A stretch of 32,000 nt of DNA from Parasynechococcus marenigrum WH 8102 (GTDB lineage: Bacteria; Cyanobacteriota; Cyanobacteriia; PCC-6307; Cyanobiaceae). Positions within the stretch are counted from its first letter, which is position 1; each line of letters starts with the position of its first letter. Both the position numbers and the translations under genes were made by a program. Positions 3,317 to 32,000 of this stretch are shown here, in pieces. Under the pieces are notes generated by a model. That model was not told the DNA's origin, ran no database searches, and saw only the letters and a program-made list of their open reading frames with translations. Where the stretch lies: contig NC_005070.1 of assembly GCF_000195975.1 (NCBI RefSeq), forward strand, positions 900,001 to 932,000. Reading direction: 5' to 3'.

Positions 3317-3337
3317 CAATTTCTTCACTAAATCGTG

Positions 3338-4234: not shown

Positions 4235-4289
4235 GACCTCGCTGATCTCACTGGCTGGAGGACCTGCAGGTTCAGGCTAAACAATGGCC

Positions 4290-4727: not shown

Positions 4728-4750
4728 GCCAAGTCCGTGGCTGGACCGAT

Positions 4751-6157: not shown

Positions 6158-6207
6158 GGGATCCAGTGGGATCTCCTTAGAGTCTGGTGCTGTTTTGGGC
6201 GCTGGCG

Positions 6208-7857: not shown

Positions 7858-7902
7858 TCAGTTGCCGCTAGGGTCGCGCCTTCCTAGCCATCTGAGGCAT
7901 CG

Positions 7903-8322: not shown

Positions 8323-8406
8323 CCCGACGTTCTTGGTGAATGACTCGACCAAGGCCGTCTGGATTGTCAGACTGCCGATGTCTTGACACCAACAGGCGTG
8401 ATCGCC

Positions 8407-9114: not shown

Positions 9115-9121
9115 GCAGCAG

Positions 9122-12988: not shown

Positions 12989-13001
12989 GAGTTTTACTTC
13001 A

Positions 13002-13042
13002 GTTATTGGAACAATAACGGCGCCCCACCGCAGTTGGTGGGG
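13002..13042. promoter_or_regulatory. Twin perfect palindromes in the divergent upstream region between the RHH-like gene and the giant gene
   Basis: The first is GTTATTG (13002-13008), spacer gaa, CAATAAC (13012-13018). The second is CCCCACC (13023-13029), spacer gcagtt, GGTGGGG (13036-13042). They sit 14-54 nt upstream of ATG 12988 (minus strand) and about 97-137 nt upstream of ATG 13139 (plus strand). They lie exactly at the AT-rich to GC-rich junction. Function (operator, RNA hairpin or relic terminator) is not established. Confidence 0.4.
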
Positions 13043-13138
13043 TTTGGGGTAGGTCTGTAGATACCGTAACGCAAGGTCTCCAGCACCTGTCGGCATCTCG
13101 ACACCCTTTTGGGACAGTTGGGAGCTTCATAGGCGATA

Positions 13139-16100
13139 ATGGATACAAGTGGCTACGTGTACCCACCAATGGATGATCTCCTGAAGCGCCAGAACGGAGG
13201 TGGGCAGGGCGGTTTCGACCCCAATAGCTCTGATGGCGGTGACCTCAACGGTGGTGACGGTCTCCATCCGAGGCCGGGGGAATCGGATGTCGGCAGTGGT
13301 TTGGAGCTCGACAGGAGTCTGCAGCGTGTGGCGGCTCACGAGGCTTGGCTGAACGAGCAGAGCCAGCTGCCGGTTGAAAACTGGCTGCAGATCCGTGGTG
13401 GCAAATCAATAGCCCTTGAAAATTTTGGCGTAAACAATAATACAACGAACGAATTCACAAGAGATTTTGAGAAAAGTCTGATAGTTGTCGATCAGCGCTC
13501 AATTGATTTGGAAGATTACAGTCGAAACTTGCCACCTGAAACTGATATCTTAGTTCTCAATCCGAACACCAGCGGTGCAAATCAAATCAGAGAATTTCTA
13601 ATTGGTGATAATGCTGCCGACTACAGCAATATATCCATAATAGGTTGCAGGGATGATTTTCATAATGCATGCCTTGGTTCAGACGTGTTATCAGTCGAAG
13701 ACTTGTCTAAACAGATTTATTTGTTTCAGCAAGAGAATTTAATTGATACTTCTGTAAACCTCAGGTTATTCACCGCAGAAAATCTAGTAGTAAATGTTAC
13801 ACAATCTCCTTCTCAGTCGGCGAGCACTGAACTATTAAGTAGAGCTATTAATATAATTTCAAGCTCATTTGATAGCGGCCGCTTTCAGGAATCTTTAAAT
13901 CATGCATATTCAGCTTCAAAACATTCATATGTATTAGATAGAGCCTATCAATTAATTAATGGTACAAGTGCACCATCTATTGAATTGGTTGACTTTGGAA
14001 AAGCTGAAATAAAAGGAGCTTACCTAAGTGGTCAAGATAGGATTTTGGTCGATTCCAGTCTTCGCAATGCTAATACTTTGCTAGACAGGGTTTTGATTGA
14101 GGAAATTGGTCACTGGCTAGATGAATCTCATGGCGCCGATAGCAAAGGTGATGAAGGTGATATCTTTGCAACATCGTTATTAGGCGGAAATCCTACATCC
14201 TCATCTCGTATTGATAATGTCAAACGTCAGATATTGTCTCTTAATGGTCATTTTTATTATGCTGAATTTGCTAACTTTGGTGTTGACACACTTAGCTCTT
14301 CCTCGGAAGTGCAAAGTGCTGGTTCAAGCATTATCCTTGCCCCAGAGTCTGGATATTCATTTAGAGATGTAATTTCAGACCATAGTGTTAGTGGAGCGAA
14401 TGTTGCTTCGCAATTTAGTGTTTTTGTAAATGGCGGAGCCTCGATATCTCCAACCGGGGCTTCGTTTAGTAGTGGGTCACTTCTTTTGACTGGTATTTCC
14501 CCAGTCATCGAACAAAATGACTACGTTACGATTTCATACTCTCCTTCTGGTACATCAACATTTAATTTAGTTGATAGCTCAAATCCTGGTTCAGATACTG
14601 TCCCAGCATTTTCTGACTTGCCGATTGACAACAATTCAACAAAGGATATAACAGCTGGTTATGTTGACTTTGGTTCTAGTACTACAGCAGTTGCGACCAA
14701 TGGAGCAACAATCGTACTGAAGTTTAACGAAGCGTTAGCAGACATTACCAACGATGCAAATACCAGAAATCAGTTTGCAGTACTGACTAACGGAGCAGCA
14801 AATGCTGTAACCGGAATAGCACTTGGTGGAAGTAATAAGGAAGTGACGTTGACGCTGACGAATACGGTAGAGGACGGCGATGAAGTCACTGTTGCCTACA
14901 CGAAGGATACTGGCAATAGTGTTCAGCTTGAGGACCGCCATACAGATGCAACTGATATCGACAACTTTAGTGCGACTTCTATTACCAATAATTCAACCAA
15001 GGATTTAACAGCTGGGACCGTTGACTTTGGTTCTAGTACTACAGCGGTTGCGACCAATGGAGCAACAATCGTACTGAAGTTTACTGAGGCGCTGGCAGAC
15101 ATTACCAATGATGCAAATACCAGAAATCAGTTTGCAGTACTGACTAATGGAGCAGCAAATGCTGTAACCGGAATAGCACTTGGCGGAAGTAATAAGGAAG
15201 TGACATTGACGCTAACGAATACGGTAGAGGACGGCGATGAAGTCACTGTTGCCTACACGAAGGATACTGGCAATAGTGTTCAGCTTGAGGACCGCCATAC
15301 AGATGCGACTGATATCGACAACTTTAGTGCGACTTCTGTTACCAATAATTCGACCAAGGATATTACTGGTGCGGTTATTGATTTCGGAGCATCTACAACA
15401 GCAGTTGCTACGAATGGTGCCACATTAGTACTGACATTCCCTGAGGAATTGGCTGACATCAGTGATGGAGCGGATGTGCGTGCACAATTTGCCGTTTTAA
15501 CGAATGGAGCTGCTAATGCTGTTACTGGTGTATCGCTAGGAGGAAGTAATAAGCAAGTCACCTTGACTTTGACGAATGTCGTTGAAGATGAAGATGAGGT
15601 GACGGTTGCTTATACGGCAAATGGTGCTAATGCGTTGAAGGATCGACACGCAGACGCGACGAATATTGCTAATTGGAATGCGACTTCAATTACAAACAAT
15701 TCAACAAAGGATACAACAGCTGGTTATGTTGACTTTGGTTCTAGTACTACAGCAGTTGCGACCAATGGAGCAACAATCGTACTGAAGTTTAACGAAGCGT
15801 TAGCAGACATTACCAACGATGCAAATACCAGAAATCAGTTTGCAGTACTGACTAACGGAGCAGCAAATGCTGTAACCGGAATAGCACTTGGTGGAAGTAA
15901 TAAGGAAGTGACGTTGACGCTGACGAATACGGTAGAGGACGGCGATGAAGTCACTGTTGCCTACACGAAGGATACTGGCAATAGTGTTCAGCTTGAGGAC
16001 CGCCATACAGATGCAACTGATATCGACAACTTTAGTGCGACTTCTATTACCAATAATTCAACCAAGGATTTAACAGCTGGAACCGTTGACTTTGGTTCTA

Positions 16101-19100
16101 GTACTACAGCGGTTGCGACCAATGGAGCAACAATTGTACTGAAGTTTACTGAGGCGCTGGCAGACATTACCAATGATGCAAATACCAGAAATCAGTTTGC
16201 AGTACTGACTAATGGAGCAGCAAATGCTGTAACTGGAATAGCACTTGGCGGAAGTAATAAGGAAGTGACATTGACGCTAACGAATACGGTAGAGGACGGC
16301 GATGAAGTCACTGTTGCCTACACGAAGGATACTGGCAATAGTGTTCAGCTTGAGGACCGCCATACAGATGCGACTGATATCGACAACTTTAGTGCGACTT
16401 CTGTTACCAACAATTCGACCAAGGATATTACTGGTGCGGTTATTGATTTCGGAGCATCTACAACAGCAGTTGCTACGAATGGTGCCACATTAGTACTGAC
16501 ATTCCCTGAGGAATTGGCTGACATCAGTGATGGAGCGGATGTGCGTGCACAATTTGCCGTTTTAACGAATGGAGCTGCTAATGCTGTTACTGGTGTATCG
16601 CTAGGAGGAAGTAATAAGCAAGTCACCTTGACTTTGACGAATGTCGTTGAAGATGAAGATGAGGTGACGGTTGCTTATACGGCAAATGGTGCTAATGCGT
16701 TGAAGGATCGACACGCAGACGCGACGAATATTGCTAATTGGAATGCGACTTCAATTACAAACAATTCAACAAAGGATACAACAGCTGGTTATGTTGACTT
16801 TGGTTCTAGTACTACAGCAGTTGCGACCAATGGAGCAACAATCGTACTGAAGTTTAACGAAGCGTTAGCAGACATTACCAACGATGCAAATACCAGAAAT
16901 CAGTTTGCAGTACTGACTAACGGAGCAGCAAATGCTGTAACCGGAATAGCACTTGGTGGAAGTAATAAGGAAGTGACGTTGACGCTGACGAATACGGTAG
17001 AGGACGGCGATGAAGTCACTGTTGCCTACACGAAGGATACTGGCAATAGTGTTCAGCTTGAGGACCGCCATACAGATGCAACTGATATCGACAACTTTAG
17101 TGCGACTTCTATTACCAATAATTCAACCAAGGATTTAACAGCTGGGACCGTTGACTTTGGTTCTAGTACTACAGCGGTTGCGACCAATGGAGCAACAATC
17201 GTACTGAAGTTTACTGAGGCGCTGGCAGACATTACCAATGATGCAAATACCAGAAATCAGTTTGCAGTACTGACTAATGGAGCAGCAAATGCTGTAACCG
17301 GAATAGCACTTGGCGGAAGTAATAAGGAAGTGACATTGACGCTAACGAATACGGTAGAGGACGGCGATGAAGTCACTGTTGCCTACACGAAGGATACTGG
17401 CAATAGTGTTCAGCTTGAGGACCGCCATACAGATGCGACTGATATCGACAACTTTAGTGCGACTTCTGTTACCAATAATTCGACCAAGGATATTACTGGT
17501 GCGGTTATTGATTTCGGAGCATCTACAACAGCAGTTGCTACGAATGGTGCCACATTAGTACTGACATTCCCTGAGGAATTGGCTGACATCAGTGATGGAG
17601 CGGATGTGCGTGCACAATTTGCCGTTTTAACGAATGGAGCTGCTAATGCTGTTACTGGTGTATCGCTAGGAGGAAGTAATAAGCAAGTCACCTTGACTTT
17701 GACGAATGTCGTTGAAGATGAAGATGAGGTGACGGTTGCTTATACGGCAAATGGTGCTAATGCGTTGAAGGATCGACACGCAGACGCGACGAATATTGCT
17801 AATTGGAATGCGACTTCAATTACAAACAATTCAACAAAGGATACAACAGCTGGTTATGTTGACTTTGGTTCTAGTACTACAGCAGTTGCGACCAATGGAG
17901 CAACAATCGTACTGAAGTTTAACGAAGCGTTAGCAGACATTACCAACGATGCAAATACCAGAAATCAGTTTGCAGTACTGACTAACGGAGCAGCAAATGC
18001 TGTAACCGGAATAGCACTTGGTGGAAGTAATAAGGAAGTGACGTTGACGCTGACGAATACGGTAGAGGACGGCGATGAAGTCACTGTTGCCTACACGAAG
18101 GATACTGGCAATAGTGTTCAGCTTGAGGACCGCCATACAGATGCGACTGATATCGACAACTTTAGTGCGACTTCTGTTACCAACAATTCAACCAAGGATT
18201 TAACAGCTGGAACCGTTGACTTTGGTTCTAGTACTACAGCGGTTGCGACCAATGGAGCAACAATTGTACTGAAGTTTACTGAGGCACTGGCAGACATTAC
18301 CAATGATGCAAATACCAGAAATCAGTTTGCAGTACTGACTAATGGAACAGCAAATGCTGTAACCGGAATAGCACTTGGCGGAAGTAATAAGGAAGTGACG
18401 TTGACGTTAACGAATACGGTAGAGGACGGCGATGAAGTCACTGTTGCCTACACGAAGGATACTGTCAATAGCGTTCAGCTTGAGGACCGCCATACAGATG
18501 CGACTGATATCGACAACTTTAGTGCAACTGCTGTTACCAATAATTCGACCAAGGATATTACTGGTGCCGTCGTCGATTGGGCGGCTGCAACTACCGCAGT
18601 AGCTACCGATGGTGCCACATTAGTACTGACATTCCCTGAGGAATTGGCTGACATCAGTGATGGAGCGGATGTGCGTGCACAATTTGCCGTTTTAACGAAT
18701 GGAGCTGCTAATGCTGTTACTGGTGTATCGCTAGGAGGAAGTAATAAGCAAGTCACCTTGACTTTGACGAATGTCGTTGAAGATGAAGATGAGGTGACGG
18801 TTGCTTATACGGCAAATGGTGCTAATGCGTTGAAGGATCGACACGCAGACGCGACGAATATTGCTAATTTTAATGCTATTAGCATAACCAATAATTCAAC
18901 CAAGGATTTAACAGCTGGAACCGTTGACTTTGGTTCTAGTACTACAGCTGTTGCGACCAATGGAGCAACAATTGTACTGAAGTTTAATGAAGCGTTGGCT
19001 GACATTACCAATAATGCCAATACCAGAAGTCAGTTTGCTGTTCTTGTTAATGGCGCTACTAATAACGTTACTTCAATTTCCCTTGGCGATTCTAATACGG

Positions 19101-25100: not shown

Positions 25101-28100
25101 CTGGTTCGACAGTTGTTCTGCCTTCTGCAGAGACAACCGGCCAATATATTGGGTTCTCTAAGGTTACTTCCACTCAAGGTGATCTTTATCTCAAGGCTGA
25201 TGGAACAGCTTTCTATGTGCATGGTGGATCGGACATTGTAGGAACTGGCACCACTGATGTGTTTACATATACTGTTAATGATGGAACTAACCAAACCACT
25301 AATACAATTACGATTAACCTCGTTGACACTACTGTTGTTCCTCCTACCAACAGCTCATCGTCAACAAATAGTGCTAGCTCTATCAATCTTGTAATGTCGG
25401 AGGCTATTAAAAGTAATGTCACTGCCCTTCAGTCTATCTCGGACTTTTCCAGTATCGGTCCATTCTTTTCATTACAAATTGGCAATCAGACTCTTGCCTA
25501 TGGAACTGGATCCGGCACATTCTCTATGGACAAAGTCAACAGCACAACACTTACATTTATTGTAAATACCGAGTCTGATTATATTCAAAATGTACATGAA
25601 TTGGTACAACTTGTTTATAATCCAACAGGGGCTAATACTCATCATTTAAAGGATTTGGACGGCAATTTTGCTTCTGGTTTCACGCAACTAGTTACCAATC
25701 AATTTGTTGCACCATCTGTTTCCAGTGCAACGACGACCAGCTCGAATGTCGTGACAATGGTACTGTCTGAGAATGCATTGAGCAACAGTGCCAATCTCTC
25801 AGCCATTACTAATTTTGCCGATCTTGGTGCTCTATTCTCTGTAAAAGTAGGCAGCCAGACGTTGAGTTATGGAGCTAGCGGTGCAGGCACATTTAGCCTC
25901 GGTAAGGATGGATCCAATAACAACAAGTTAGTCTTTACGATCAATACAGAAGCTGACTACCTGCAAAACGATCAAGAGGTTGTACAGATTATCTATAACG
26001 CTGATCCCAGCTCTACGACACATAACCTAGTTGATTCTGACGGGAACCAGACAACAGATTTCACATTTACTGCGGCTAATAGCTTCTTAGCACCATCTGT
26101 TTCCAGTGCAACGACGACCAGCTCGAATGTCGTGACAATGGTACTGTCTGAGAATGCATTGAGCAACAGTGCCAATCTCTCAGCCATTACTAATTTTGCC
26201 GATCTTGGTGCTCTATTCTCTGTCAAAGTAGGCAGCCAGACGTTGAGTTATGGAGCTAGCGGTGCAGGCACATTTAGCCTCGGTAAGGATGGATCCAATA
26301 ACAACAAGTTAGTCTTTACGATCAATACAGAAGCTGACTATCTGCAAAGCGATCAAGAGGTTGTTCAGATTATCTATAACGCTGATCCCAGCTCGACGAC
26401 ACATAACCTAGTTGATTCTGACGGGAACCAGACAACAGATTTTACATTTACTGCGGCTAATAGCTTCTTAGCACCATCTGTTTCCAGTGCAACGACGACC
26501 AGCTCGAATGTCGTGACAATGGTACTGTCTGAGAATGCATTGAGCAACAGTGCCAATCTCTCAGCCATTACTGACTTTGCCAATCTTGGTGCTCTATTCT
26601 CTGTCAAAGTAGGCAGCCAGACGTTGAGTTATGGAGCTAGCGGTGCAGGCACATTTAGCCTCGAGAAGGATGGATCCAATAACAACAAGTTAGTCTTTAC
26701 GATCAATACAGAAGCTGATTATCTGCAAAACGATCAAGAGGTTGTTGAAATTATCTATAACGCTGATCCCAGCTCGACGACGCATAATTTAGTTGATTCT
26801 GACGGGAACCAAACAACAGATTTCACATTTACTGCGGCTAATAGCTTCTTAGCACCATCTGTTTCCAGTGCAACGACGACCAGCTCGAATGTCGTGACAA
26901 TGGTACTGTCTGAGAATGCATTGAGCAACAGTGCCAATCTCTCAGCCATTACTAATTTCGCCAATCTTGGTGCTCTATTCTCTGTCAAAGTAGGCAGCCA
27001 GACGTTGACTTATGGAGCTAGCGGTGCAGGCACATTTAGCCTCGGTAAGGATGGATCCAATAACAACAAGTTAGTCTTTACGATCAATACAGAAGCTGAT
27101 TATCTGCAAAACGATCAAGAGATTGTTGAAATTATCTATAACGCTGATCCCAGCTCGACGACGCATAATTTAGTTGATTCTGACGGGAACCAAACAACAG
27201 ATTTCACATTTACTGCGGCTAATAGCTTCTTAGCACCATCTGTTTCCAGTGCAACGACGACCAGCTCGAATGTCGTGACAATGGTACTGTCTGAGAATGC
27301 ATTGAGTAACAGTGCCAATCTCTCAGCCATTACTAATTTTGCCAATCTTGGTGCTCTATTCTCTGTCAAGGTAGGTAGCCAGACGTTGAGTTATGGAGCT
27401 AGCGGTGCAGGCACATTTAGCCTCGGTAAGGATGGATCCAATAACAACAAGTTAGTCTTTACGATCAATACAGAAGCTGACTATCTGCAAAACGATCAAG
27501 AGGTTGTTCAGATTATCTATAACGCTGATCCCAGCTCGACGACACATAATTTAGTTGATTCTGACGGGAACCAGACAACAGATTTCGCATTTACTGCGGC
27601 TAATAGCTTCTTAGCACCATCTGTTTCCAGTGCAACGACGACCAGCTCGAATGTCGTGACAATGGTACTGTCTGAGAATGCATTGAGCAACAGTGCCAAT
27701 CTCTCAGCCATTACTAATTTTGCCGATCTTGGTGCTCTATTCTCTGTAAAAGTAGGCAGCCAGACGTTGAGTTATGGAGCTAGCGGTGCAGGCACATTTA
27801 GCCTCGGTAAGGATGGATCCAATAACAACAAGTTAGTCTTTACGATCAATACAGAAGCTGACTACCTGCAAAACGATCAAGAGGTGGTTCAGATTATCTA
27901 TAACGCTGATCCCAGCTCGACGACACATAACCTAGTTGATTCTGATGCGAACCAGACAACAGATTTCACATTTACTGCGGCTAATAGCTTCTTAGCACCA
28001 TCTGTTTCCAGTGCAACGACGACCAGCTCGAATGTCGTGACAATGGTACTGTCTGAGAATGCATTGAGCAACAGTGCCAATCTCTCAGCCATTACTAATT

Positions 28101-31100
28101 TTGCCGATCTTGGTGCTCTATTCTCTGTAAAAGTAGGCAGCCAGACGTTGAGTTATGGAGCTAGCGGTGCAGGCACATTTAGCCTCGGTAAGGATGGATC
28201 CAATAACAACAAGTTAGTCTTTACGATCAATACAGAAGCTGACTACCTGCAAAACGATCAAGAGGTTGTACAGATTATCTATAACGCTGATCCCAGCTCT
28301 ACGACACATAACCTAGTTGATTCTGACGGGAACCAGACAACAGATTTCACATTTACTGCGGCTAATAGCTTCTTAGCACCATCTGTTTCCAGTGCAACGA
28401 CGACCAGCTCGAATGTCGTGACAATGGTACTGTCTGAGAATGCATTGAGCAACAGTGCCAATCTCTCAGCCATTACTAATTTTGCCGATCTTGGTGCTCT
28501 ATTCTCTGTCAAAGTAGGCAGCCAGACGTTGAGTTATGGAGCTAGCGGTGCAGGCACATTTAGCCTCGGTAAGGATGGATCCAATAACAACAAGTTAGTC
28601 TTTACGATCAATACAGAAGCTGACTACCTGCAAAACGATCAAGAGGTTGTTCAGATTATCTATAACGCTGATCCCAGCTCGACGACACATAACCTAGTTG
28701 ATTCTGACGGGAACCAGACAACAGATTTTACATTTACTGCGGCTAATAGCTTCTTAGCACCATTTGTTTCCAGTGCAACGACGACCAGTTCGAATGTCGT
28801 GACAATGGTACTGTCTGAGAACTCATTGAGCAACAGTGCCAATCTCTCAGCCATTACTAACTTTGCCGATCTTGGTGCTCTATTCTCTGTCAAAGTAGGC
28901 AGCCAGACGTTGAGTTATGGAGCTAGCGGTGCAGGCACATTTAGCCTCGAGAAGGATGGATCCAATAACAACAAGTTAGTCTTTACGATCAATACAGAAG
29001 CTGATTATCTGCAAAACGATCAAGAGGTTGTTCAGATTATCTATAATGCTGATTCCAGCTCTACGACACATAACCTAGTTGATTCTGACGGGAACCAGAC
29101 AATAGATTTTACATTTACTGCGACTAATAGCTTCTTAGCATCGTCTGTATCAAGTGCAACGACCACCAGCTCGAATGTCGTGACGATGGTGCTGTCTGAG
29201 AACTCATTGAGCAACAGTGCCAATCTCTCAGCCATTACTAATTTCGCCAATCTTGGTGCTCTATTCTCTGTCAAAGTAGGCAGCCAGACGTTGACTTATG
29301 GAGCTAGCGGTGCAGGCACATTTAGCCTCGGTAAGGATGGATCCAATAACAACAAGTTAGTCTTTACGATCAATACAGAAGCTGATTATCTGCAAAACGA
29401 TCAAGAGATTGTTGAAATTATCTATAACGCTGATCCCAGCTCGACGACGCATAATTTAGTTGATTCTGACGGGAACCAAACAACAGATTTCACATTTACT
29501 GCGACTAATAGCTTCCTAGCACCATCTGTTTCCAGTGCAACGACCACCAGCTCGAATGTCGTGACGATGGTACTGTCTGAGAATGCATTGAGCAACAGTG
29601 CCAATCTCTCAGCCATTACTAACTTTGCCAATCTTGGTGCTCTATTCTCTGTCAAAGTAGGCAGCCAGACGTTGAGTTATGGAGCTAGCGGTGCAGGCAC
29701 ATTTAGCCTCGGTAAGGATGGATCCAATAACAACAAGTTAGTCTTTACGATCAATACAGAAGCTGATTATCTGCAAAACGATCAAGAGGTTGTTCAGATT
29801 ATCTATAACGCTGATCCCAGCTCGACGACACATAACCTAGTTGATTCTGATGCGAACCAGACAACAGATTTTACATTTACTGCGACTAATAGCTTCCTAG
29901 CACCATCTGTTTCCAGTGCAACGACCACCAGCTCGAATGTCGTGACAATGGTATTGTCTGAGAATGCATTGAGCAACAGTGCCAATCTCTCAGACATTAC
30001 TAACTTTGCCAATCTTGGTGCTCTATTCTCTGTAAAAGTAGGCAGCCAGACGTTGAGTTATGGAGCTAGCGGTGCAGGCACATTTAGCCTCGGTAAGGAT
30101 GGATCCAATAACAACAAGTTAGTCTTTACGATCAATACAGAAGCTGATTATCTGCAAAACGATCAAGAGATTGTTGAAATTATCTATAACGCTGATCCCA
30201 GCTCGACGACGCATAATTTAGTTGATTCTGACGGGAACCAAACAACAGATTTCACATTTACTGCGGCTAATAGCTTCTTAGCACCATCTGTTTCCAGTGC
30301 AACGACGACCAGCTCGAATGTCGTGACAATGGTACTGTCTGAGAATGCATTGAGTAACAGTGCCAATCTCTCAGCCATTACTAATTTTGCCAATCTTGGT
30401 GCTCTATTCTCTGTCAAGGTAGGTAGCCAGACGTTGAGTTATGCAGCTAGCGGTGCAGGCACATTTAGCCTCGGTAAGGATGGATCCAATAACAACAAGT
30501 TAGTCTTTACGATCAATACAGAAGCTGACTATCTGCAAAACGATCAAGAGGTTGTTCAGATTATCTATAACGCTGATCCCAGCTCGACGACACATAATTT
30601 AGTTGATTCTGACGGGAACCAGACAACAGATTTCGCATTTACTGCGGCTAATAGCTTCTTAGCACCATCTGTTTCCAGTGCAACGACGACCAGCTCGAAT
30701 GTCGTGACAATGGTACTGTCTGAGAATGCATTGAGCAACAGTGCCAATCTCTCAGCCATTACTAATTTTGCCGATCTTGGTGCTCTATTCTCTGTCAAAG
30801 TAGGCAGCCAGACGTTGACTTATGGAGCTAGCGGTGCAGGCACATTTAGCCTCGGTAAGGATGGATCCAATAACAACAAGTTAGTCTTTACGATCAATAC
30901 AGAAGCTGATTATCTGCAAAACGATCAAGAGGTTGTTCAGATTATCTATAACGCTGATCCCAGCTCGACGACACATAACCTAGTTGATTCTGATGCTAAT
31001 CAGACAACAGATTTTACATTTACTGCGACTAATAGCTTCTTAGCACCATCTGTTTCCAGTGCAACGACGACCAGCTCGAATGTCGTGACAATGGTACTGT

Positions 31101-32000
31101 CTGAGAATGCATTGAGCAACAGTGCCAATCTCTCAGCCATTACTAATTTTGCCGATCTTGGTGCTCTATTCTCTGTAAAAGTAGGCAGCCAGACGTTGAG
31201 TTATGGAGCTAGCGGTGCAGGCACATTTAGCCTCGGTAAGGATGGATCCAATAACAACAAGTTAGTCTTTACGATCAATACAGAAGCTGATTATCTGCAA
31301 AACGATCAAGAGGTTGTTCAGATTATCTATAACGCTGATCCCAGCTCGACGACACATAACCTAGTTGATTCTGATGCTAATCAGACAACAGATTTTACAT
31401 TTACTGCGACTAATAGCTTCCTAGCACCATCTGTTTCCAGTGCAACGACGACCAGCTCGAATGTCGTGACAATGGTACTGTCTGAGAATGCATTGAGCAA
31501 CAGTGCCAATCTCTCAGCCATTACTAACTTTGCCAATCTTGGTGCTCTATTCTCTGTCAAAGTAGGCAGCCAGACGTTGAGTTATGGAGCTAGCGGTGCA
31601 GGCACATTTAGCCTCGGTAAGGATGGATCCAATAACAACAAGTTAGTCTTTACGATCAATACAGAAGCTGATTATCTGCAAAACGATCAAGAGGTTGTTC
31701 AGATTATCTATAACGCTGATCCCAGCTCGACGACACATAACCTAGTTGATTCTGATGCTAATCAGACAACAGATTTTACATTTACTGCGACTAATAGCTT
31801 CCTAGCACCATCTGTTTCCAGTGCAACGACGACCAGCTCGAATGTCGTGACGATGGTACTGTCTGAGAACTCATTGAGCAACAGTGCCAATCTCTCAGAC
31901 ATTACTAACTTTGCCAATCTTGGTGCTCTATTCTCCGTCAAAGTAGGCAGCCAGACGTTGAGTTATGGAGCTAGCGGTGCAGGCACATTTAGCCTCGGTA
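13139..32000 (+). CDS. swmB: Giant repetitive cell-surface protein, SwmB-like (3' end outside the window; at least 6,287 codons here)
   Basis: I translated this frame by hand across 13139-15000, 18120-19620 and 24300-25740 and found no stop. The rest consists of near-identical repeat copies. The track lists no plus-strand ORF in this frame in the 381-bp array, although each unit contains an in-frame Met (VVTMVLSE). That is expected only if no stop follows. An in-frame TAG at 13130-13132 precedes the first ATG. Domains: DUF4347-like (LIVVDQRSIDLEDY...LVLNPNTSGANQIREFL), 28 Ig-like modules, 2 VCBS-like domains and at least 16.5 repeats of 127 aa. The symbol is from my recollection of SwmB architecture, low GC and synteny, not from an alignment. 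Confidence 0.9.
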   Translation, partial: MDTSGYVYPPMDDLLKRQNGGGQGGFDPNSSDGGDLNGGDGLHPRPGESDVGSGLELDRSLQRVAAHEAWLNEQSQLPVENWLQIRGGKSIALENFGVNNNTTNEFTRDFEKSLIVVDQRSIDLEDYSRNLPPETDILVLNPNTSGANQIREFLIGDNAADYSNISIIGCRDDFHNACLGSDVLSVEDLSKQIYLFQQENLIDTSVNLRLFTAENLVVNVTQSPSQSASTELLSRAINIISSSFDSGRFQESLNHAYSASKHSYVLDRAYQLINGTSAPSIELVDFGKAEIKGAYLSGQDRILVDSSLRNANTLLDRVLIEEIGHWLDESHGADSKGDEGDIFATSLLGGNPTSSSRIDNVKRQILSLNGHFYYAEFANFGVDTLSSSSEVQSAGSSIILAPESGYSFRDVISDHSVSGANVASQFSVFVNGGASISPTGASFSSGSLLLTGISPVIEQNDYVTISYSPSGTSTFNLVDSSNPGSDTVPAFSDLPIDNNSTKDITAGYVDFGSSTTAVATNGATIVLKFNEALADITNDANTRNQFAVLTNGAANAVTGIALGGSNKEVTLTLTNTVEDGDEVTVAYTKDTGNSVQLEDRHTDATDIDNFSATSITNNSTKDLTAGTVDFGSSTTAVATNGATIVLKFTEALADITNDANTRNQFAVLTNGAANAVTGIALGGSNKEVTLTLTNTVEDGDEVTVAYTKDTGNSVQLEDRHTDATDIDNFSATSVTNNSTKDITGAVIDFGASTTAVATNGATLVLTFPEELADISDGADVRAQFAVLTNGAANAVTGVSLGGSNKQVTLTLTNVVEDEDEVTVAYTANGANALKDRHADATNIANWNATSITNNSTKDTTAGYVDFGSSTTAVATNGATIVLKFNEALADITNDANTRNQFAVLTNGAANAVTGIALGGSNKEVTLTLTNTVEDGDEVTVAYTKDTGNSVQLEDRHTDATDIDNFSATSITNNSTKDLTAGTVDFGSSTTAVATNGATIVLKFTEALADITNDANTRNQFAVLTNGAANAVTGIALGGSNKEVTLTLTNTVEDGDEVTVAYTKDTGNSVQLEDRHTDATDIDNFSATSVTNNSTKDITGAVIDFGASTTAVATNGATLVLTFPEELADISDGADVRAQFAVLTNGAANAVTGVSLGGSNKQVTLTLTNVVEDEDEVTVAYTANGANALKDRHADATNIANWNATSITNNSTKDTTAGYVDFGSSTTAVATNGATIVLKFNEALADITNDANTRNQFAVLTNGAANAVTGIALGGSNKEVTLTLTNTVEDGDEVTVAYTKDTGNSVQLEDRHTDATDIDNFSATSITNNSTKDLTAGTVDFGSSTTAVATNGATIVLKFTEALADITNDANTRNQFAVLTNGAANAVTGIALGGSNKEVTLTLTNTVEDGDEVTVAYTKDTGNSVQLEDRHTDATDIDNFSATSVTNNSTKDITGAVIDFGASTTAVATNGATLVLTFPEELADISDGADVRAQFAVLTNGAANAVTGVSLGGSNKQVTLTLTNVVEDEDEVTVAYTANGANALKDRHADATNIANWNATSITNNSTKDTTAGYVDFGSSTTAVATNGATIVLKFNEALADITNDANTRNQFAVLTNGAANAVTGIALGGSNKEVTLTLTNTVEDGDEVTVAYTKDTGNSVQLEDRHTDATDIDNFSATSVTNNSTKDLTAGTVDFGSSTTAVATNGATIVLKFTEALADITNDANTRNQFAVLTNGTANAVTGIALGGSNKEVTLTLTNTVEDGDEVTVAYTKDTVNSVQLEDRHTDATDIDNFSATAVTNNSTKDITGAVVDWAAATTAVATDGATLVLTFPEELADISDGADVRAQFAVLTNGAANAVTGVSLGGSNKQVTLTLTNVVEDEDEVTVAYTANGANALKDRHADATNIANFNAISITNNSTKDLTAGTVDFGSSTTAVATNGATIVLKFNEALADITNNANTRSQFAVLVNGATNNVTSISLGDSNTAITLTLATAVEDGDEVTVAYTKDTGNSVQLEDRHTDATDIDNFSATAITNNSTQTLSAPNPLFGSTSTAVASAGNLLVLKFAGQLADVTNDANTRNQFSVTTNGVANTVTGISLGGSNTEITLTLTQVIEDNDEVTLSYTKDSVNNVELAGRTAGSAQVSDFLSTAITNNSTKDTTAGYVDFGSSTTAVATNGATIVLKFNEALADITNDANTRNQFAVLTNGAANAVTGIALGGSNKEVTLTLTNTVEDGDEVTVAYTKDTGNSVQLEDRHTDATDIDNFSATSITNNSTKDLTAGTVDFGSSTTAVATNGATIVLKFTEALADITNDANTRNQFAVLTNGAANAVTGIALGGSNKEVTLTLTNTVEDGDEVTVAYTKDTGNSVQLEDRHTDATDIDNFSATSVTNNSTKDITGAVIDFGASTTAVATNGATLVLTFPEELADISDGADVRAQFAVLTNGAANAVTGVSLGGSNKQVTLTLTNVVEDEDEVTVAYTANGANALKDRHADATNIANWNATSITNNSTKDTTAGYVDFGSSTTAVATNGATIVLKFNEALADITNDANTRNQFAVLTNGAANAVTGIALGGSNKEVTLTLTNTVEDGDEVTVAYTKDTGNSVQLEDRHTDATDIDNFSATSITNNSTKDLTAGTVDFGSSTTAVATNGATIVLKFTEALADITNDANTRNQFAVLTNGAANAVTGIALGGSNKEVTLTLTNTVEDGDEVTVAYTKDTGNSVQLEDRHTDATDIDNFSATSVTNNSTKDITGAVIDFGASTTAVATNGATLVLTFPEELADISDGADVRAQFAVLTNGAANAVTGVSLGGSNKQVTLTLTNVVEDEDEVTVAYTANGANALKDRHADATNIANWNATSITNNSTKDTTAGYVDFGSSTTAVATNGATIVLKFNEALADITNDANTRNQFAVLTNGAANAVTGIALGGSNKEVTLTLTNTVEDGDEVTVAYTKDTGNSVQLEDRHTDATDIDNFSATSITNNSTKDLTAGTVDFGSSTTAVATNGATIVLKFTEALADITNDANTRNQFAVLTNGAANAVTGIALGGSNKEVTLTLTNTVEDGDEVTVAYTKDTGNSVQLEDRHTDATDIDNFSATSVTNNSTKDITGAVIDFGASTTAVATNGATLVLTFPEELADISDGADVRAQFAVLTNGAANAVTGVSLGGSNKQVTLTLTNVVEDEDEVTVAYTANGANALKDRHADATNIANWNATSITNNSTKDTTAGYVDFGSSTTAVATNGATIVLKFNEALADITNDANTRNQFAVLTNGAANAVTGIALGGSNKEVTLTLTNTVEDGDEVTVAYTKDTGNSVQLEDRHTDATDIDNFSATSITNNSTKDLTAGTVDFGSSTTAVATNGATIVLKFTEALADITNDANTRNQFAVLTNGAANAVTGIALGGSNKEVTLTLTNTVEDGDEVTVAYTKDTGNSVQLEDRHTDATDIDNFSATSVTNNSTKDITGAVIDFGASTTAVATNGATLVLTFPEELADISDGADVRAQFAVLTNGAANAVTGVSLGGSNKQVTLTLTNVVEDEDEVTVAYTANGANALKDRHADATNIANWNATSITNNSTKDTTAGYVDFGSSTTAVATNGATIVLKFNEALADITNDANTRNQFAVLTNGAANAVTGIALGGSNKEVTLTLTNTVEDGDEVTVAYTKDTGNSVQLEDRHTDATDIDNFSATSITNNSTKDLTAGTVDLRSSTTAVATNGATIVLKFTEALADITNDANTRNQFAVTVDGSTNTVTGIALGGSNQEVTLTLTNAIKDGAEVFVAYTKDTVNSVQLEDRHTDASDILDFTYSINNSSTVDSTIPVAVADTSSVEVGGSVVFDGTSGNQPILITNDTDNVGVTGIGAVDGVSFTSLTNSDHGTYSGAAGYKKVVGTFGTLYIKSNGVAAYIHTGTRATDTDVFIYTATDLQGNESIPIKLTINAQDTTAPSKSDTITESVNEGSTSSNLQLLSIFSDNSSTFSVTNIKVGSGSTVVLPSAETTGQYIGFSKVTSTQGDLYLKADGTAFYVHGGSDIVGTGTTDVFTYTVNDGTNQTTNTITINLVDTTVVPPTNSSSSTNSASSINLVMSEAIKSNVTALQSISDFSSIGPFFSLQIGNQTLAYGTGSGTFSMDKVNSTTLTFIVNTESDYIQNVHELVQLVYNPTGANTHHLKDLDGNFASGFTQLVTNQFVAPSVSSATTTSSNVVTMVLSENALSNSANLSAITNFADLGALFSVKVGSQTLSYGASGAGTFSLGKDGSNNNKLVFTINTEADYLQNDQEVVQIIYNADPSSTTHNLVDSDGNQTTDFTFTAANSFLAPSVSSATTTSSNVVTMVLSENALSNSANLSAITNFADLGALFSVKVGSQTLSYGASGAGTFSLGKDGSNNNKLVFTINTEADYLQSDQEVVQIIYNADPSSTTHNLVDSDGNQTTDFTFTAANSFLAPSVSSATTTSSNVVTMVLSENALSNSANLSAITDFANLGALFSVKVGSQTLSYGASGAGTFSLEKDGSNNNKLVFTINTEADYLQNDQEVVEIIYNADPSSTTHNLVDSDGNQTTDFTFTAANSFLAPSVSSATTTSSNVVTMVLSENALSNSANLSAITNFANLGALFSVKVGSQTLTYGASGAGTFSLGKDGSNNNKLVFTINTEADYLQNDQEIVEIIYNADPSSTTHNLVDSDGNQTTDFTFTAANSFLAPSVSSATTTSSNVVTMVLSENALSNSANLSAITNFANLGALFSVKVGSQTLSYGASGAGTFSLGKDGSNNNKLVFTINTEADYLQNDQEVVQIIYNADPSSTTHNLVDSDGNQTTDFAFTAANSFLAPSVSSATTTSSNVVTMVLSENALSNSANLSAITNFADLGALFSVKVGSQTLSYGASGAGTFSLGKDGSNNNKLVFTINTEADYLQNDQEVVQIIYNADPSSTTHNLVDSDANQTTDFTFTAANSFLAPSVSSATTTSSNVVTMVLSENALSNSANLSAITNFADLGALFSVKVGSQTLSYGASGAGTFSLGKDGSNNNKLVFTINTEADYLQNDQEVVQIIYNADPSSTTHNLVDSDGNQTTDFTFTAANSFLAPSVSSATTTSSNVVTMVLSENALSNSANLSAITNFADLGALFSVKVGSQTLSYGASGAGTFSLGKDGSNNNKLVFTINTEADYLQNDQEVVQIIYNADPSSTTHNLVDSDGNQTTDFTFTAANSFLAPFVSSATTTSSNVVTMVLSENSLSNSANLSAITNFADLGALFSVKVGSQTLSYGASGAGTFSLEKDGSNNNKLVFTINTEADYLQNDQEVVQIIYNADSSSTTHNLVDSDGNQTIDFTFTATNSFLASSVSSATTTSSNVVTMVLSENSLSNSANLSAITNFANLGALFSVKVGSQTLTYGASGAGTFSLGKDGSNNNKLVFTINTEADYLQNDQEIVEIIYNADPSSTTHNLVDSDGNQTTDFTFTATNSFLAPSVSSATTTSSNVVTMVLSENALSNSANLSAITNFANLGALFSVKVGSQTLSYGASGAGTFSLGKDGSNNNKLVFTINTEADYLQNDQEVVQIIYNADPSSTTHNLVDSDANQTTDFTFTATNSFLAPSVSSATTTSSNVVTMVLSENALSNSANLSDITNFANLGALFSVKVGSQTLSYGASGAGTFSLGKDGSNNNKLVFTINTEADYLQNDQEIVEIIYNADPSSTTHNLVDSDGNQTTDFTFTAANSFLAPSVSSATTTSSNVVTMVLSENALSNSANLSAITNFANLGALFSVKVGSQTLSYAASGAGTFSLGKDGSNNNKLVFTINTEADYLQNDQEVVQIIYNADPSSTTHNLVDSDGNQTTDFAFTAANSFLAPSVSSATTTSSNVVTMVLSENALSNSANLSAITNFADLGALFSVKVGSQTLTYGASGAGTFSLGKDGSNNNKLVFTINTEADYLQNDQEVVQIIYNADPSSTTHNLVDSDANQTTDFTFTATNSFLAPSVSSATTTSSNVVTMVLSENALSNSANLSAITNFADLGALFSVKVGSQTLSYGASGAGTFSLGKDGSNNNKLVFTINTEADYLQNDQEVVQIIYNADPSSTTHNLVDSDANQTTDFTFTATNSFLAPSVSSATTTSSNVVTMVLSENALSNSANLSAITNFANLGALFSVKVGSQTLSYGASGAGTFSLGKDGSNNNKLVFTINTEADYLQNDQEVVQIIYNADPSSTTHNLVDSDANQTTDFTFTATNSFLAPSVSSATTTSSNVVTMVLSENSLSNSANLSDITNFANLGALFSVKVGSQTLSYGASGAGTFSLG
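13478..13960 (+). other. DUF4347-like N-terminal domain of the giant protein (approximate limits)
   Basis: The sequence is LIVVDQRSIDLEDYSRNLPPETDILVLNPNTSGANQIREFLIGDNAADYSNISIIGCRDDFHNACLGSDVLSVEDL. This follows the v-f-i-D...L...l....vv.Ld...dg..qI...L.....i.i.sHG...l.lG...L pattern found at the N-termini of very large bacterial adhesins. The limits are estimated. Confidence 0.55.
14630..24571 (+). repeat. In-frame tandem array 1: 28 Ig-like modules (357, 357, 351 bp) forming a 1065-bp A-B-C super-repeat
   Basis: Module starts (the NNST codons) are 14630, 14987, 15344, 15695 ... 17825, 18182, 18539, 18890, 19247, 19604 ... 23864, 24221. The array ends at 24571. The 1065-bp unit recurs at 14630, 15695, 16760, 17825 and again at 19604, 20669, 21734, 22799, 23864 (partial). 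Consensus module: NNSTKDxTAGxVDFGSSTTAVATNGATIVLKFxEALADITNDANTRNQFAVLTNGAANAVTGIALGGSNKEVTLTLTNTVEDGDEVTVAYTKDTGNSVQLEDRHTDATDIDNFSATSIT. A degenerate module 0 lies at about 14290-14629. Confidence 0.95.
24590..25322 (+). other. Two VCBS/cadherin-like domains between the two repeat arrays
   Basis: Each copy shows the expected pattern. Copy 1: ...ILITNDTDNVGVTGI...GTYSGAAGYKKVVGTFGTLYIKSNGVAAYIHTG...DTDVFIYTATDLQGNESIPIKLTIN. Copy 2: ...GQYIGFSKVTSTQGDLYLKADGTAFYVHGG...TTDVFTYTVNDGTNQTTNTITINL. This matches G.yG.L.i..dGsy.Y......D.FtYtv.D..g......i.i as seen in VCBS repeats of RTX-type adhesins. Confidence 0.6.
25328..32000 (+). repeat. In-frame tandem array 2: 381-bp (127-aa) repeats, with one diverged founder unit, 16 complete units and a partial 17th at the window edge
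   Basis: Unit starts (the GCA of APSVSS) are 25709, 26090, 26471, 26852, 27233, 27614, 27995, 28376, 28757, 29138, 29519, 29900, 30281, 30662, 31043, 31424 and 31805. Consensus: APSVSSATTTSSNVVTMVLSENALSNSANLSAITNFADLGALFSVKVGSQTLSYGASGAGTFSLGKDGSNNNKLVFTINTEADYLQNDQEVVQIIYNADPSSTTHNLVDSDGNQTTDFTFTAANSFL. The unit at 25328-25708 is clearly related but much more diverged (VPPTNSSSSTNSASSINLVMSEAIKSNVTALQSISDFSSIGPFFSLQIGNQTLAYGTGSGTFSMDK...). Confidence 0.95.

What the first reader, a model, noticed from the sequence alone, without database searches (positions are those of the whole stretch)
13139..32000. A giant ORF of at least 6,287 codons is invisible in the ORF track and explains every repeated small ORF in the second half of the window
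The track only reports ORFs that end in a stop. The frame that opens at ATG 13139 never closes within the window. My hand translation of the unique stretches (13139-15000, 18120-19620, 24300-25740) found no stop.

The product has the hallmarks of a giant surface adhesin or S-layer-associated protein: a DUF4347-like head, Ig-like modules, VCBS-like domains and a second repeat type. With the roughly 40% GC body in a roughly 60-65% GC genome, and the upstream phoB-phoR-like pair, it matches what I remember of SwmB. SwmB is the 1.12-MDa protein required for non-flagellar swimming in Synechococcus WH8102 (McCarren and Brahamsha). How such proteins generate thrust is still unknown, so any structural detail of the gene is of interest.
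Basis: partly seen in the sequence, partly recalled or inferred. Interest (0 to 1): 0.75.

Follow-up and report, generated by a model that had tools for sequence, protein, structure and literature searches.

The report
First 58% of known swmB gene

Summary
The frame from ATG 13139 has 6,287 codons and no stop up to the window end. Shuffles give about 376 stops, and no other frame stays open for more than 109 codons.

The flanking genes are exact matches to WH8102 proteins, including SYNW0947 (phoB), SYNW0951 and SYNW0952. The giant ORF is therefore SYNW0953, which is swmB. The literature gives SwmB as 10,791 aa, about 1.12 MDa, and required for non-flagellar swimming. The window holds its first 58%.

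Anatomy of the product:
- An acidic head with no signal peptide, containing a weak DUF4347 match.
- One degenerate SWM unit, then 28 SWM-type units arranged as 355-aa a-b-c triplets that are nearly identical at the DNA level.
- Two cadherin-like modules.
- At least 18.5 copies of a 127-aa second repeat. I show this repeat is a distant SWM-type unit with an Ig-like fold.

Novelty: already known. Small additions are the 98% versus 43% contrast with strain A18-46.1 and a conserved EEIGHW motif in the head. The thrust mechanism remains unknown.

The parts
8407..9114 (+). Context: phoB (SYNW0947), response regulator
   Evidence: The 235-aa product is an exact match to CAE07462.1, named 'Two-component response regulator, phosphate'. 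It carries Response_reg and Trans_reg_C domains. SYNW0947 is the PhoB homologue according to PMC2673484.
9167..10264 (+). Context: phoR (SYNW0948), sensor histidine kinase. The ORF is open from 9122, but the called start is 9167.
   Evidence: Best NCBIfam match is PhoR, TIGR02966, E 5.5e-52. A 365-aa gene is called at this place in L006. PMC2673484 names SYNW0948 as the downstream phoR.
11950..32000 (.). Low-GC island (41-45.5% GC) beginning just after SYNW0950 and running off the window end
   Evidence: Composition profile. Published descriptions match: island Syn_GI102 contains swmB (PMC7522525), and SYNW0951-0961 is described as an island region (PMC3744912).
12128..12412 (+). SYNW0951, hypothetical 94-aa protein
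   Evidence: Exact match to CAE07466.1, labelled 84588.SYNW0951. No Pfam match.
12650..13096 (-). SYNW0952, small protein transcribed divergently from swmB. It is 148 aa from ATG 13096 or 112 aa from ATG 12988, and its C-terminal half is coiled-coil-like.
   Evidence: Exact matches to WP_148228769.1 (148 aa) and CAE07467.1 (112 aa). The same 90% cluster holds proteins from strains A18-40 and BOUM118. Only weak coiled-coil-type Pfam hits were found.
13139..32000 (+). swmB (SYNW0953), first 6,287 of 10,791 codons; the ORF runs off the window end
   Evidence: No stop codon in the frame. Position directly after SYNW0951 and SYNW0952. Gene 0953 is SwmB, 10,791 aa.
13139..14263 (+). Head, aa 1-375. 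It is acidic (pI 4.5) and has no hydrophobic signal peptide. Residues 1-56 are predicted disordered.
   Evidence: Sequence, composition and the AF2 model: mean pLDDT 60.5, with the core at residues 111-350 scoring 70-88.
13277..13387 (+). Nearly invariant N-terminal segment, aa 47-83 (GESDVGSGLELDRSLQRVAAHEAWLNEQSQLPVENWL)
   Evidence: Alignment A2 of 12 heads: most invariant columns fall in this segment. It is predicted helical at residues 51-85.
13478..13729 (+). DUF4347-like alpha/beta domain, aa 114-197
   Evidence: Pfam PF14252, E 1e-3, 19.3 bits, below the 24.6-bit cut-off. Orthologues P0001 (31.5 bits) and P0008 (25.4 bits) pass it. Fold matches were only weak (caspase-like alpha/beta, E 0.02, TM <= 0.46) and are not significant.
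14090..14161 (+). Conserved motif VLIEEIGHWLDESHGADSKGDEGD, aa 318-341
   Evidence: E321, E322, H325, W326, D334, S335, G337 and D338 are nearly invariant. This is the only part shared with N-terminal regions of exoproteins in Richelia, Lyngbya and Calothrix.
14264..14632 (+). Degenerate SWM-type unit ('unit 0'), aa 376-498
   Evidence: TIGR02059 swm_rep_I, E 1.3e-6, at aa 376-471. It aligns with array A units in alignment A3.
14633..24580 (+). Array A: 28 SWM-type units of 119, 119 and 117 aa, organised as a-b-c triplets of 355 aa (1,065 nt). Seven of the eight full triplets differ from one another by 0-5 nt, and exact DNA repeats reach 1,910 nt.
   Evidence: TRF reports period 357 with 27.9 copies. 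Unit list. Triplet mismatch matrix. Pfam SWM_repeat 997 bits. TIGR02059 399 bits per triplet.
18185..19606 (+). Divergent units 11-14 that split array A into two blocks.
   Evidence: Unit sequences. Pfam SWM_repeat matches 4 stretches in 18119-19618.
24581..25327 (+). Two cadherin-like/Big_9-type modules, C1 (24581-24979) and C2 (24980-25327)
   Evidence: NCBIfam BapA/Bap/LapF large-adhesin model, E 6.4e-7, 2 stretches, far below its cut-off. Pfam Cadherin_3, E 0.018. Homologues at 47-59% identity carry PF17963, PF17892 and PF16184. Coordinates.
25328..25708 (+). B0, a divergent first copy of the second repeat (44% identical to B1)
25709..32000 (+). Array B: 127-aa (381-nt) units, 17.5 copies up to the window end, 93-100% identical at the DNA level. 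The unit is a distant SWM-type module with an Ig-like beta-sandwich fold.
   Evidence: TRF. Unit list and identity matrix. hhalign of A units against B units gives probability 95.7%, E 8.7e-9. AF2 model has pLDDT 93.4 and pTM 0.87. Best PDB matches are the Ig-like domains of S-layer proteins SbsC and SbsB, TM 0.53-0.57.

Best explanation
Shown: the window is a piece of the Synechococcus (Parasynechococcus marenigrum) WH8102 chromosome. The open frame from 13139 is the 5' 58% of swmB (SYNW0953), the published 10,791-aa, roughly 1.12-MDa cell-surface protein whose inactivation stops non-flagellar swimming.

Shown: the encoded part is a cysteine-poor, very acidic (pI about 4.1) protein rich in Thr, Ser, Asn and Ala. 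It has no N-terminal signal peptide. It consists of a conserved 375-aa head followed by about 50 tandem beta-sandwich modules: 1 degenerate unit, 28 SWM units, 2 cadherin-like modules and at least 18.5 B units.

Inferred mechanism:
- Export: the protein leaves the cell by a signal-peptide-independent route, most likely type I (ABC-type) secretion.
- Shape: it is displayed as a long, semi-rigid string of Ig-like domains reaching through and beyond the SwmA S-layer. At about 4-4.5 nm per module, the in-window part alone would span roughly 200 nm.
- Anchoring: the conserved head is the part that stays at the envelope.
- Role in swimming: the fibre acts as the surface element that couples a still unidentified envelope motor to the S-layer and the water. 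This is analogous to the giant repetitive SprB adhesin that is carried around Flavobacterium cells.

Inferred: the near-identical repeats and the low GC mark a laterally acquired, fast-evolving island gene whose repeat number can change by recombination.
For: Identity:
- Exact protein matches to CAE07454, 07456, 07462, 07464, 07465, 07467 and WP_148228769 of WH8102, and to CAE07466.1 = SYNW0951.
- SYNW0947 and SYNW0948 are phoB and phoR.
- Gene 0953 is SwmB and is 10,791 aa long.
- swmB lies in clade-III island Syn_GI102.

Coding status:
- 0 stops against about 376 expected.
- SwmB peptides have been detected in proteomes and exoproteomes.

Architecture: Pfam and TIGR repeat hits, unit lists, the A-versus-B profile match, the B-unit model and its Ig-like S-layer-protein matches, the cadherin-like linker and the composition.

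Surface location and role in swimming: literature.

Export route (weak support): there is no hydrophobic N-terminus, and the head motif recurs near the N-terminus of a Lyngbya protein that ends in RTX repeats.
Against: - The SwmB protein record itself (CAE07468 / NP_897046) could not be retrieved, so identity rests on exact flanking genes, gene numbering and family matches, not on a direct alignment.
- The C-terminal 4,504 residues lie outside the window. No RTX repeat or secretion signal was seen, and no HemolysinCabind hit occurs in the window.
- Nothing in the sequence shows a motor contact.
- The head has no significant structural or family match beyond weak DUF4347.
- The literature still lists the energy source and mechanism as unknown.
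- SWM-type repeats also occur in proteobacteria that do not swim this way, so the repeats do not by themselves imply a role in motility.
Confidence: 0.95

Rival explanations
1. The gene is swmB, but the fibre is mainly a protective and structural surface coat against grazers and phages. On this reading the loss of swimming in mutants is an indirect effect of a disturbed surface, and the fibre does not transmit force.
For: - The literature describes SwmA and SwmB as 'swimming and grazing defence proteins' and cites Strom et al. 2012, where a giant surface protein inhibits dinoflagellate feeding.
- The head is only 43-46% identical to that of strain A18-46.1, while the neighbouring SYNW0950 protein is 98% identical. 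This is the pattern expected for a surface antigen under diversifying selection or allele replacement.
- The repeat fold resembles domains of S-layer proteins.
- SWM repeats also occur in non-swimming proteobacteria.
Against: - swmB co-occurs with swmA only in the motile clade III, and both are missing from the two clade III strains that lack the trait.
- Insertional inactivation arrests swimming.
- The punctate rather than continuous distribution reported does not suit a coat.
- The two roles are not mutually exclusive.
Confidence: 0.3
2. The ORF is a swmB-like allele or paralogue from another clade III strain or a metagenome, not the characterised WH8102 gene.
For: - The exhaustive and word-indexed protein searches returned no full-length identical SwmB. 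The best head hit is 46% identical.
- A marine metagenome scaffold carries an identical flank.
Against: - Seven flanking proteins are exact matches to WH8102 records, and two of the names carry WH8102 locus identifiers.
- Sister strains have clearly different heads.
- Giant proteins seem to be absent from the searched database in general: only fragments were returned.
- The metagenome scaffold is 100% identical over 12 kb and differs only by a collapsed repeat.
Confidence: 0.03
3. The long frame is not one functional gene. It would be an assembly artefact of repeats, or a decaying pseudogene that happens to stay open.
For: - Exact DNA repeats of up to 1,910 nt are hard to assemble.
- A short-read assembly collapses array A entirely, so the copy numbers in any assembly deserve caution.
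Against: - 0 stops against about 376 expected over 18.9 kb.
- Unit lengths are all multiples of three, and the frame is kept across every junction.
- The protein has been detected by mass spectrometry and on gels.
- Mutants have a phenotype.
Confidence: 0.01

Closest known systems
SwmB (SYNW0953, NP_897046.1) of Synechococcus sp. WH8102 (McCarren & Brahamsha 2007)
   Same: Same genome, same position after SYNW0951 and SYNW0952, the same repeat families (Pfam SWM_repeat and TIGR02059 are named after it) and the same low-GC giant ORF.
   Different: Nothing known to differ. The window holds only residues 1-6287 of 10,791. A direct alignment to the deposited protein could not be run.
swmB orthologues of other clade III strains (A18-46.1, YX04-3, RS9915, BOUM118)
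   Same: Same flank (SYNW0950 is 98% identical), the same head architecture, an almost identical N-terminal 95 residues, and SWM repeats.
   Different: Beyond residue 95 the head and repeats are only about 35-40% identical. Several genomes have gaps or fragments in this gene.
SprB, the giant repetitive surface adhesin of Flavobacterium johnsoniae gliding
   Same: From my own knowledge and the table quoted: a very large, repeat-built cell-surface protein that is essential for flagellum-independent movement. This is the working analogy for how SwmB might transmit force.
   Different: No sequence relationship was seen. SprB is exported by the type IX system and moves cells over solid surfaces, whereas SwmB works in open water together with an S-layer. 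Movement of SwmB on the cell has not been shown.
Giant RTX/T1SS adhesins (LapA, LapF, BapA, MpIBP)
   Same: No signal peptide, an acidic composition, long tandem Ig-like or cadherin-like 'extender' repeats with near-identical DNA copies, and a weak match of the linker modules to the BapA/Bap/LapF model (E 6.4e-7).
   Different: That score is far below the family cut-off (28.9 bits against 180). No RTX repeats occur in the window, and the C-terminus was not seen. The head is unrelated to known retention modules.
Ig-like domains of Geobacillus S-layer proteins SbsC and SbsB
   Same: They are the best structural matches of the B-unit model: TM 0.53-0.57, probability 1.0.
   Different: Sequence identity is 10-15% and E is 2e-3 to 4e-2, so this is fold-level similarity only. 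SwmB is not the S-layer protein of WH8102; SwmA is.

Membership tests
SwmB of Synechococcus WH8102 (the gene itself) | Lies in the WH8102 chromosome directly after SYNW0951 and SYNW0952, downstream of phoB/phoR (SYNW0947/0948) | tested here: met
   Exact matches to CAE07462, 07464, 07465, 07466 (labelled SYNW0951) and 07467.
SwmB of Synechococcus WH8102 (the gene itself) | Single ORF of 10,791 codons | tested here: inconclusive
   At least 6,287 codons are open, with no stop in the window. The remaining 4,504 codons and the stop lie outside the window. Attempts to reach downstream sequence failed.
SwmB of Synechococcus WH8102 (the gene itself) | Tandem SWM-type repeats (Pfam PF13753, NCBIfam TIGR02059) | tested here: met
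   PF13753 scores 997 bits with 23 stretches, plus 6 more in the second half of the translation. TIGR02059 scores 399 bits on one triplet.
SwmB of Synechococcus WH8102 (the gene itself) | Atypical base composition relative to the genome (island gene) | tested here: met
   GC 0.41-0.455 against 0.60-0.69, and GC3 0.38 against 0.74-0.76. Published as an atypical region.
SwmB of Synechococcus WH8102 (the gene itself) | Residue-by-residue identity to the deposited SwmB protein | not testable with these tools
   The record was not returned by any search. The databases gave only fragments of relatives.
SwmB of Synechococcus WH8102 (the gene itself) | Cell-surface location and requirement for swimming | not testable with these tools
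   Experimental properties, taken from the literature only.
RTX / type I-secreted giant adhesins | C-terminal RTX nonapeptide repeats and a secretion signal | not testable with these tools
   The C-terminus lies outside the window. No HemolysinCabind hit occurs in residues 1-6287.
RTX / type I-secreted giant adhesins | No N-terminal Sec or Tat signal peptide | tested here: met
   The N-terminus MDTSGYVYPPMDDLLKRQNGGGQGGFDPNSSDGG... is hydrophilic, and residues 1-56 are predicted disordered. No dedicated signal-peptide predictor was available.
RTX / type I-secreted giant adhesins | Long extender of tandem Ig-like or cadherin-like domains | tested here: met
   About 50 beta-sandwich modules, the B-unit model, and cadherin-like linker modules.
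RTX / type I-secreted giant adhesins | Recognised N-terminal retention module | tested here: inconclusive
   The head is conserved but matches no known family or solved structure apart from weak DUF4347.
VCBS repeat proteins | Match to a VCBS model (Pfam or NCBIfam) | tested here: not met
   No VCBS hit at E <= 10 (Pfam) or E <= 1 (NCBIfam) on the linker or anywhere else. The modules score as Cadherin_3 or BapA-like instead.
DUF4347 (PF14252) N-terminal domain proteins | Pfam match above the gathering score | tested here: inconclusive
   The WH8102 head scores 19.3-19.4 bits against a cut-off of 24.6. Aligned orthologues P0001 (31.5 bits) and P0008 (25.4 bits) pass it.

The most novel reading that the evidence does not exclude
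The conserved head of SwmB may be an uncharacterised envelope-docking or metal-binding module. Two elements stand out: the nearly invariant helix-rich segment at aa 47-83, and the EEIGHW..DSxGDEG motif. The motif reads like a metzincin HEIGHxLGLSH zinc site with the first His replaced by Glu, and it recurs near the N-terminus of RTX-type and other exoproteins of filamentous cyanobacteria. On this reading the head holds the fibre at the secretion pore and is the point where the hidden swimming motor acts on it. It would give a concrete handle (point mutants, pull-downs) on an unsolved motility mechanism.
Probability: 0.15. Interest if true: 0.65.

Novelty: already known. Interest (0 to 1): 0.2.

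Why it matters
Synechococcus swimming is one of the few prokaryotic motility systems whose motor, energy coupling and thrust mechanism are still unknown, and SwmB is one of its two known surface components. The finding adds no new gene.

It does show that the scan can recognise a giant ORF that an ORF track hides. The module map made here may help experimental design in four ways:
- The 355-aa triplet organisation of array A.
- The B repeat as a distant SWM-type unit with an Ig-like fold.
- The two cadherin-like linker modules.
- The conserved head contrasted with the hyperdivergent body.

The map also shows why short-read assemblies break or collapse this gene.

Tried and rejected
1. The original SwmB paper (PMC1797281) is not held, so its repeat description could not be compared.

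2. Attempts to retrieve the source genome or the rest of the gene failed:
   - The genome-contig scan with the head found only distant filamentous-cyanobacterial hits.
   - The look-up of encoding contigs returned a metagenome scaffold with a collapsed array and some short contigs.
With the linker protein alone it found only an unrelated RHS-repeat giant protein that shares cadherin-like modules.
   - Three homologue searches returned only fragments, and no full-length orthologue whose C-terminus could be inspected for RTX repeats.

3. A Pho box upstream of swmB was tested because SwmB rises under phosphate limitation. The pattern matched no more often than chance: 15 matches against 12.2 expected, and none in the swmB promoter region. 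I rejected it.

4. Promoter and terminator scans of 11800-13300 were no better than shuffles.

5. No tRNA gene marks the island edge, and there was no Rfam match in the window.

7. I suspected a ribbon-helix-helix regulator in SYNW0952 from its N-terminal pattern. No family support was found, so the idea is left as unsupported.

8. MucBP-repeat Gram-positive proteins among the B-unit hits (P0119, P0121, P0126) are compositional matches, not relatives.

9. A literature search for recent SwmB work was swamped by unrelated acronyms.
Full report
**Observation.** Translation from ATG 13139 gives 6,287 codons with no stop up to base 31999. An in-frame TAG at 13130 lies directly upstream, so the frame cannot start earlier. 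Shuffling the region gives a mean of 376 stops in this frame (minimum 333 in 200 shuffles). The other five frames of the same region carry 197-680 stops, and none stays open for more than 109 codons. The ORF listing omits the frame because it runs off the window end.

The 54 ORFs of at least 60 aa listed in 13200-32000 all lie in other frames or on the other strand. Of these, 47 form families that recur every 1,065 nt or every 381 nt, which are the periods of the two repeat arrays. The composition break is real: GC is 0.60-0.69 up to about 11,950 and 0.41-0.455 after it. GC3 is 0.38 in the giant ORF against 0.74-0.76 in phoR and ubiB.

**Identity.** Exact-sequence look-ups place the window in Synechococcus (Parasynechococcus marenigrum) WH8102.
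- The products of 736-1836, 2693-3316, 8407-9114, 10261-11013, 11004-11921 and 12650-12988/13096 are identical to CAE07454, 07456, 07462 ('Two-component response regulator, phosphate'), 07464, 07465 and 07467/WP_148228769. All of these sit on a 2,434,428-nt contig.
- The ORF at 12128-12412 is CAE07466.1, which one source labels 84588.SYNW0951.
- SYNW0947 is the PhoB homologue and SYNW0948 the downstream phoR (PMC2673484).

With consecutive numbering, the gene order in the window is 0947, 0948, 0949, 0950, 0951, 0952 and then the giant ORF, which is SYNW0953 = swmB. SwmB is 10,791 aa long (PMC4949707; PMC9387257), so the window holds its first 58%. I could not retrieve the deposited SwmB protein for a direct alignment. 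The protein databases returned only fragments of relatives. The original description (PMC1797281) is not held.

**Anatomy.** Residues are numbered from ATG 13139.

*Head, aa 1-375.* The head is hydrophilic and acidic, with no hydrophobic signal sequence. Residues 1-56 are predicted disordered. An alignment of 12 heads shows three conserved elements:
- a nearly invariant segment at aa 47-83;
- a DUF4347-like alpha/beta domain at aa 114-197. Its Pfam score of 19.3 bits is below the 24.6 cut-off here, but two orthologues score above it;
- a conserved motif, VLIEEIGHWLD..DSxGDEG, at aa 318-341.

Conservation of MDTxxYVYPP in several homologues supports the 13139 start. Met11 (ATG 13169) is invariant, however, and remains a possible alternative start.

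*Unit 0, aa 376-498.* This is a degenerate SWM-type unit (TIGR02059, E 1.3e-6).

*Array A, 14633-24580.* It has 28 SWM-type units of 119, 119 and 117 aa arranged as a-b-c triplets of 355 aa. Seven of the eight full triplets differ from each other by 0-5 nt in 1,065, and exact repeats reach 1,910 nt. Units 11-14 (18185-19606) are divergent copies that split the array in two. Family matches are overwhelming: PF13753 at 997 bits, and TIGR02059 at 399 bits per triplet.

*Linker, 24581-25327.* Two modules of about 120-130 aa end in the YTxxD..GN...I motif typical of cadherin-like domains. They give only weak direct hits: the BapA/Bap/LapF adhesin model at E 6.4e-7, and Cadherin_3 at E 0.018. Their 47-59% identical metagenomic homologues carry Big_9, Cadherin_5 and Cadherin_3. 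No VCBS model matches.

*B0 and array B, 25328-32000.* B0 (25328-25708) is a divergent copy. It is followed by 17.5 units of 127 aa (381 nt) that are 93-100% identical at the DNA level and continue past the window end.
- The B unit has no Pfam family.
- It has only 18 hits among 1.84 billion representative proteins. The real ones are short marine fragments; the three long hits I scanned (P0119, P0121, P0126) are compositional MucBP proteins.
- A profile-profile comparison shows it is a distant relative of the A unit (probability 95.7%, E 8.7e-9).
- A confident model (pLDDT 93.4, pTM 0.87) is a beta-sandwich. Its best PDB matches are Ig-like domains of the S-layer proteins SbsC and SbsB (TM 0.53-0.57, probability 1.0, E 2e-3 to 4e-2), followed by generic Ig domains.

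*Whole in-window product.* It weighs 650 kDa, has a pI of 4.06, consists of 35% Thr+Ser+Asn and contains two cysteines, both in the head.

**How it most likely works.**

*Shown.* The gene is intact and coding. The protein has been detected in cells and in the exoproteome, rises under phosphate limitation and falls in the dark. Inactivation arrests swimming, and the protein sits on the surface in a punctate pattern (as summarised in PMC3342319).

*Inferred from the anatomy.*
- The protein lacks a signal peptide and is built like the giant type I-secreted adhesins, with a head, a long extender of Ig-like modules and acidic composition. It is probably exported by an ABC-type route. From memory, not checked here: transposon screens by McCarren and Brahamsha linked an ABC transporter cluster to motility.
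- About 50 modules at 4-4.5 nm each would make the in-window part alone roughly 200 nm long, enough to pass through and beyond the SwmA S-layer.
- The conserved head, contrasted with the divergent body, suggests that the head makes the conserved contact with the secretion pore, the envelope or the motor, while the body faces the outside.
- My preferred reading is that SwmB is the surface element that couples an unidentified envelope motor to the S-layer and the water. This is comparable in role to SprB in Flavobacterium gliding and compatible with the travelling-wave model of Ehlers and Oster.

I put about 0.95 on the identification and roughly 0.4 on this mechanistic reading.

*Main functional rival.* SwmB may be chiefly a defensive or structural coat, with the motility loss an indirect effect. 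Support comes from the grazing-defence reports, the strong divergence between strains and the presence of SWM repeats in non-swimming proteobacteria. Against it are the strict co-occurrence of swmA and swmB with motility in clade III and the punctate distribution. The two roles can coexist.

**Comparison with what is known.** This is SwmB itself, so the novelty class is 'already known'. The low-GC, atypical-oligonucleotide character and the island location are also published.

Four details may not be in the literature available to me:
- Array A is organised as 355-aa triplets, split by divergent units.
- The second repeat is a remote SWM-type unit with an Ig-like fold.
- The head is mosaic when compared with strain A18-46.1: about 90% identity over the first 95 residues and then about 35-40% (43% over the 699-residue BLASTP alignment of a 720-aa N-terminal query, which runs into the first SWM units). 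The adjacent SYNW0950 protein is 98% identical between the two strains.
- The EEIGHW..DSxGDEG motif is shared with N-terminal regions of a Richelia protein (Calx-beta, FG-GAP, CHAP) and a Lyngbya protein (Cadherin, He_PIG, C-terminal RTX repeats).

The motif resembles a metzincin zinc site with the first His replaced by Glu. That is only my reading of the letters: no family or structure search supports it.

**Dead ends.** There was no Pho box above chance, no informative promoter or terminator, no tRNA and no Rfam match. No route to the downstream 13.5 kb worked. The head has no significant fold match, and two structure libraries were unavailable.

**Verdict.** The feature is a well-known gene, so interest is low (0.2). 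The unsolved mechanism keeps some value in the module map and in the head motif as an experimental handle.

Noticed in passing
L006 1-14820 versus window 2650-26973: A marine metagenome scaffold (ENA ERZ23491716 scaffold_6, 253,751 nt) is 100% identical to window 2650-14704. It then joins straight to 24309-26973 and ends inside array B. The short-read assembly deleted all of array A, and gene callers split swmB into 85-aa and 675-aa fragments.
   Followed up: yes
window 13139-15298, and 11004-11921: Against strain A18-46.1, the first 95 residues of the SwmB head are about 90% identical and the rest about 35-40% (43% overall). The adjacent SYNW0950 protein is 98% identical. So a hyperdivergent or replaced allele sits in a conserved flank.
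   Followed up: partly
window 14090-14161; L004 9647-12547; L003 9569-13729: The motif EEIGHWLD..DSxGDEG is nearly invariant among SwmB-type heads. It recurs near the N-terminus of unrelated multidomain exoproteins of Richelia sinica and a Lyngbya MAG, and the Lyngbya protein has C-terminal RTX repeats. It resembles a metzincin zinc site with His replaced by Glu, but no family or structure match supports that reading.
   Followed up: partly
window 12650-13096 (-): SYNW0952 is transcribed divergently, and its longer start lies only 42 nt from the swmB start. It has two annotated lengths (148 and 112 aa) and a coiled-coil-like C-terminal half. Close homologues occur in the swmB-bearing strains A18-40 and BOUM118. 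I suspected a ribbon-helix-helix N-terminus, but no family hit supports it.
   Followed up: partly
window 11950-12650: The GC drop starts about 1.2 kb before swmB and includes SYNW0951 (12128-12412), a protein found almost only in WH8102 (a cluster of 4 members). The region SYNW0951-0961 is reported as induced by mitomycin C, with swmB itself the exception. No tRNA or integrase marks the left edge within the window.
   Followed up: partly
window 14633-24580: Seven of the eight full 1,065-nt triplets differ by 0-5 nt, and the two blocks of the array share an exact run of 1,910 nt at an offset of 4,974 nt. This points to recent block duplication or ongoing gene conversion, and it makes the copy number in any assembly uncertain.
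   Followed up: partly
proteins P0136, P0139, P0143, P0147: SWM-type repeats (37-42% identical) occur in 'SwmB domain-containing protein' fragments of the proteobacteria Verminephrobacter and Acidovorax, and in a hypothetical-protein fragment from a Haliea MAG. The repeat is therefore a general surface-protein module and does not mark swimming.
   Followed up: no
window 4290-4754 (-) versus 4284-4793 (+): Two ORFs overlap on opposite strands here. The gene called in the identical metagenome scaffold is the minus-strand one, with a DPBB_1 (RlpA-like) domain. The plus-strand ORF, and likewise 7858-9057 (-) opposite phoB, are high-GC shadow ORFs with no family match.
   Followed up: partly
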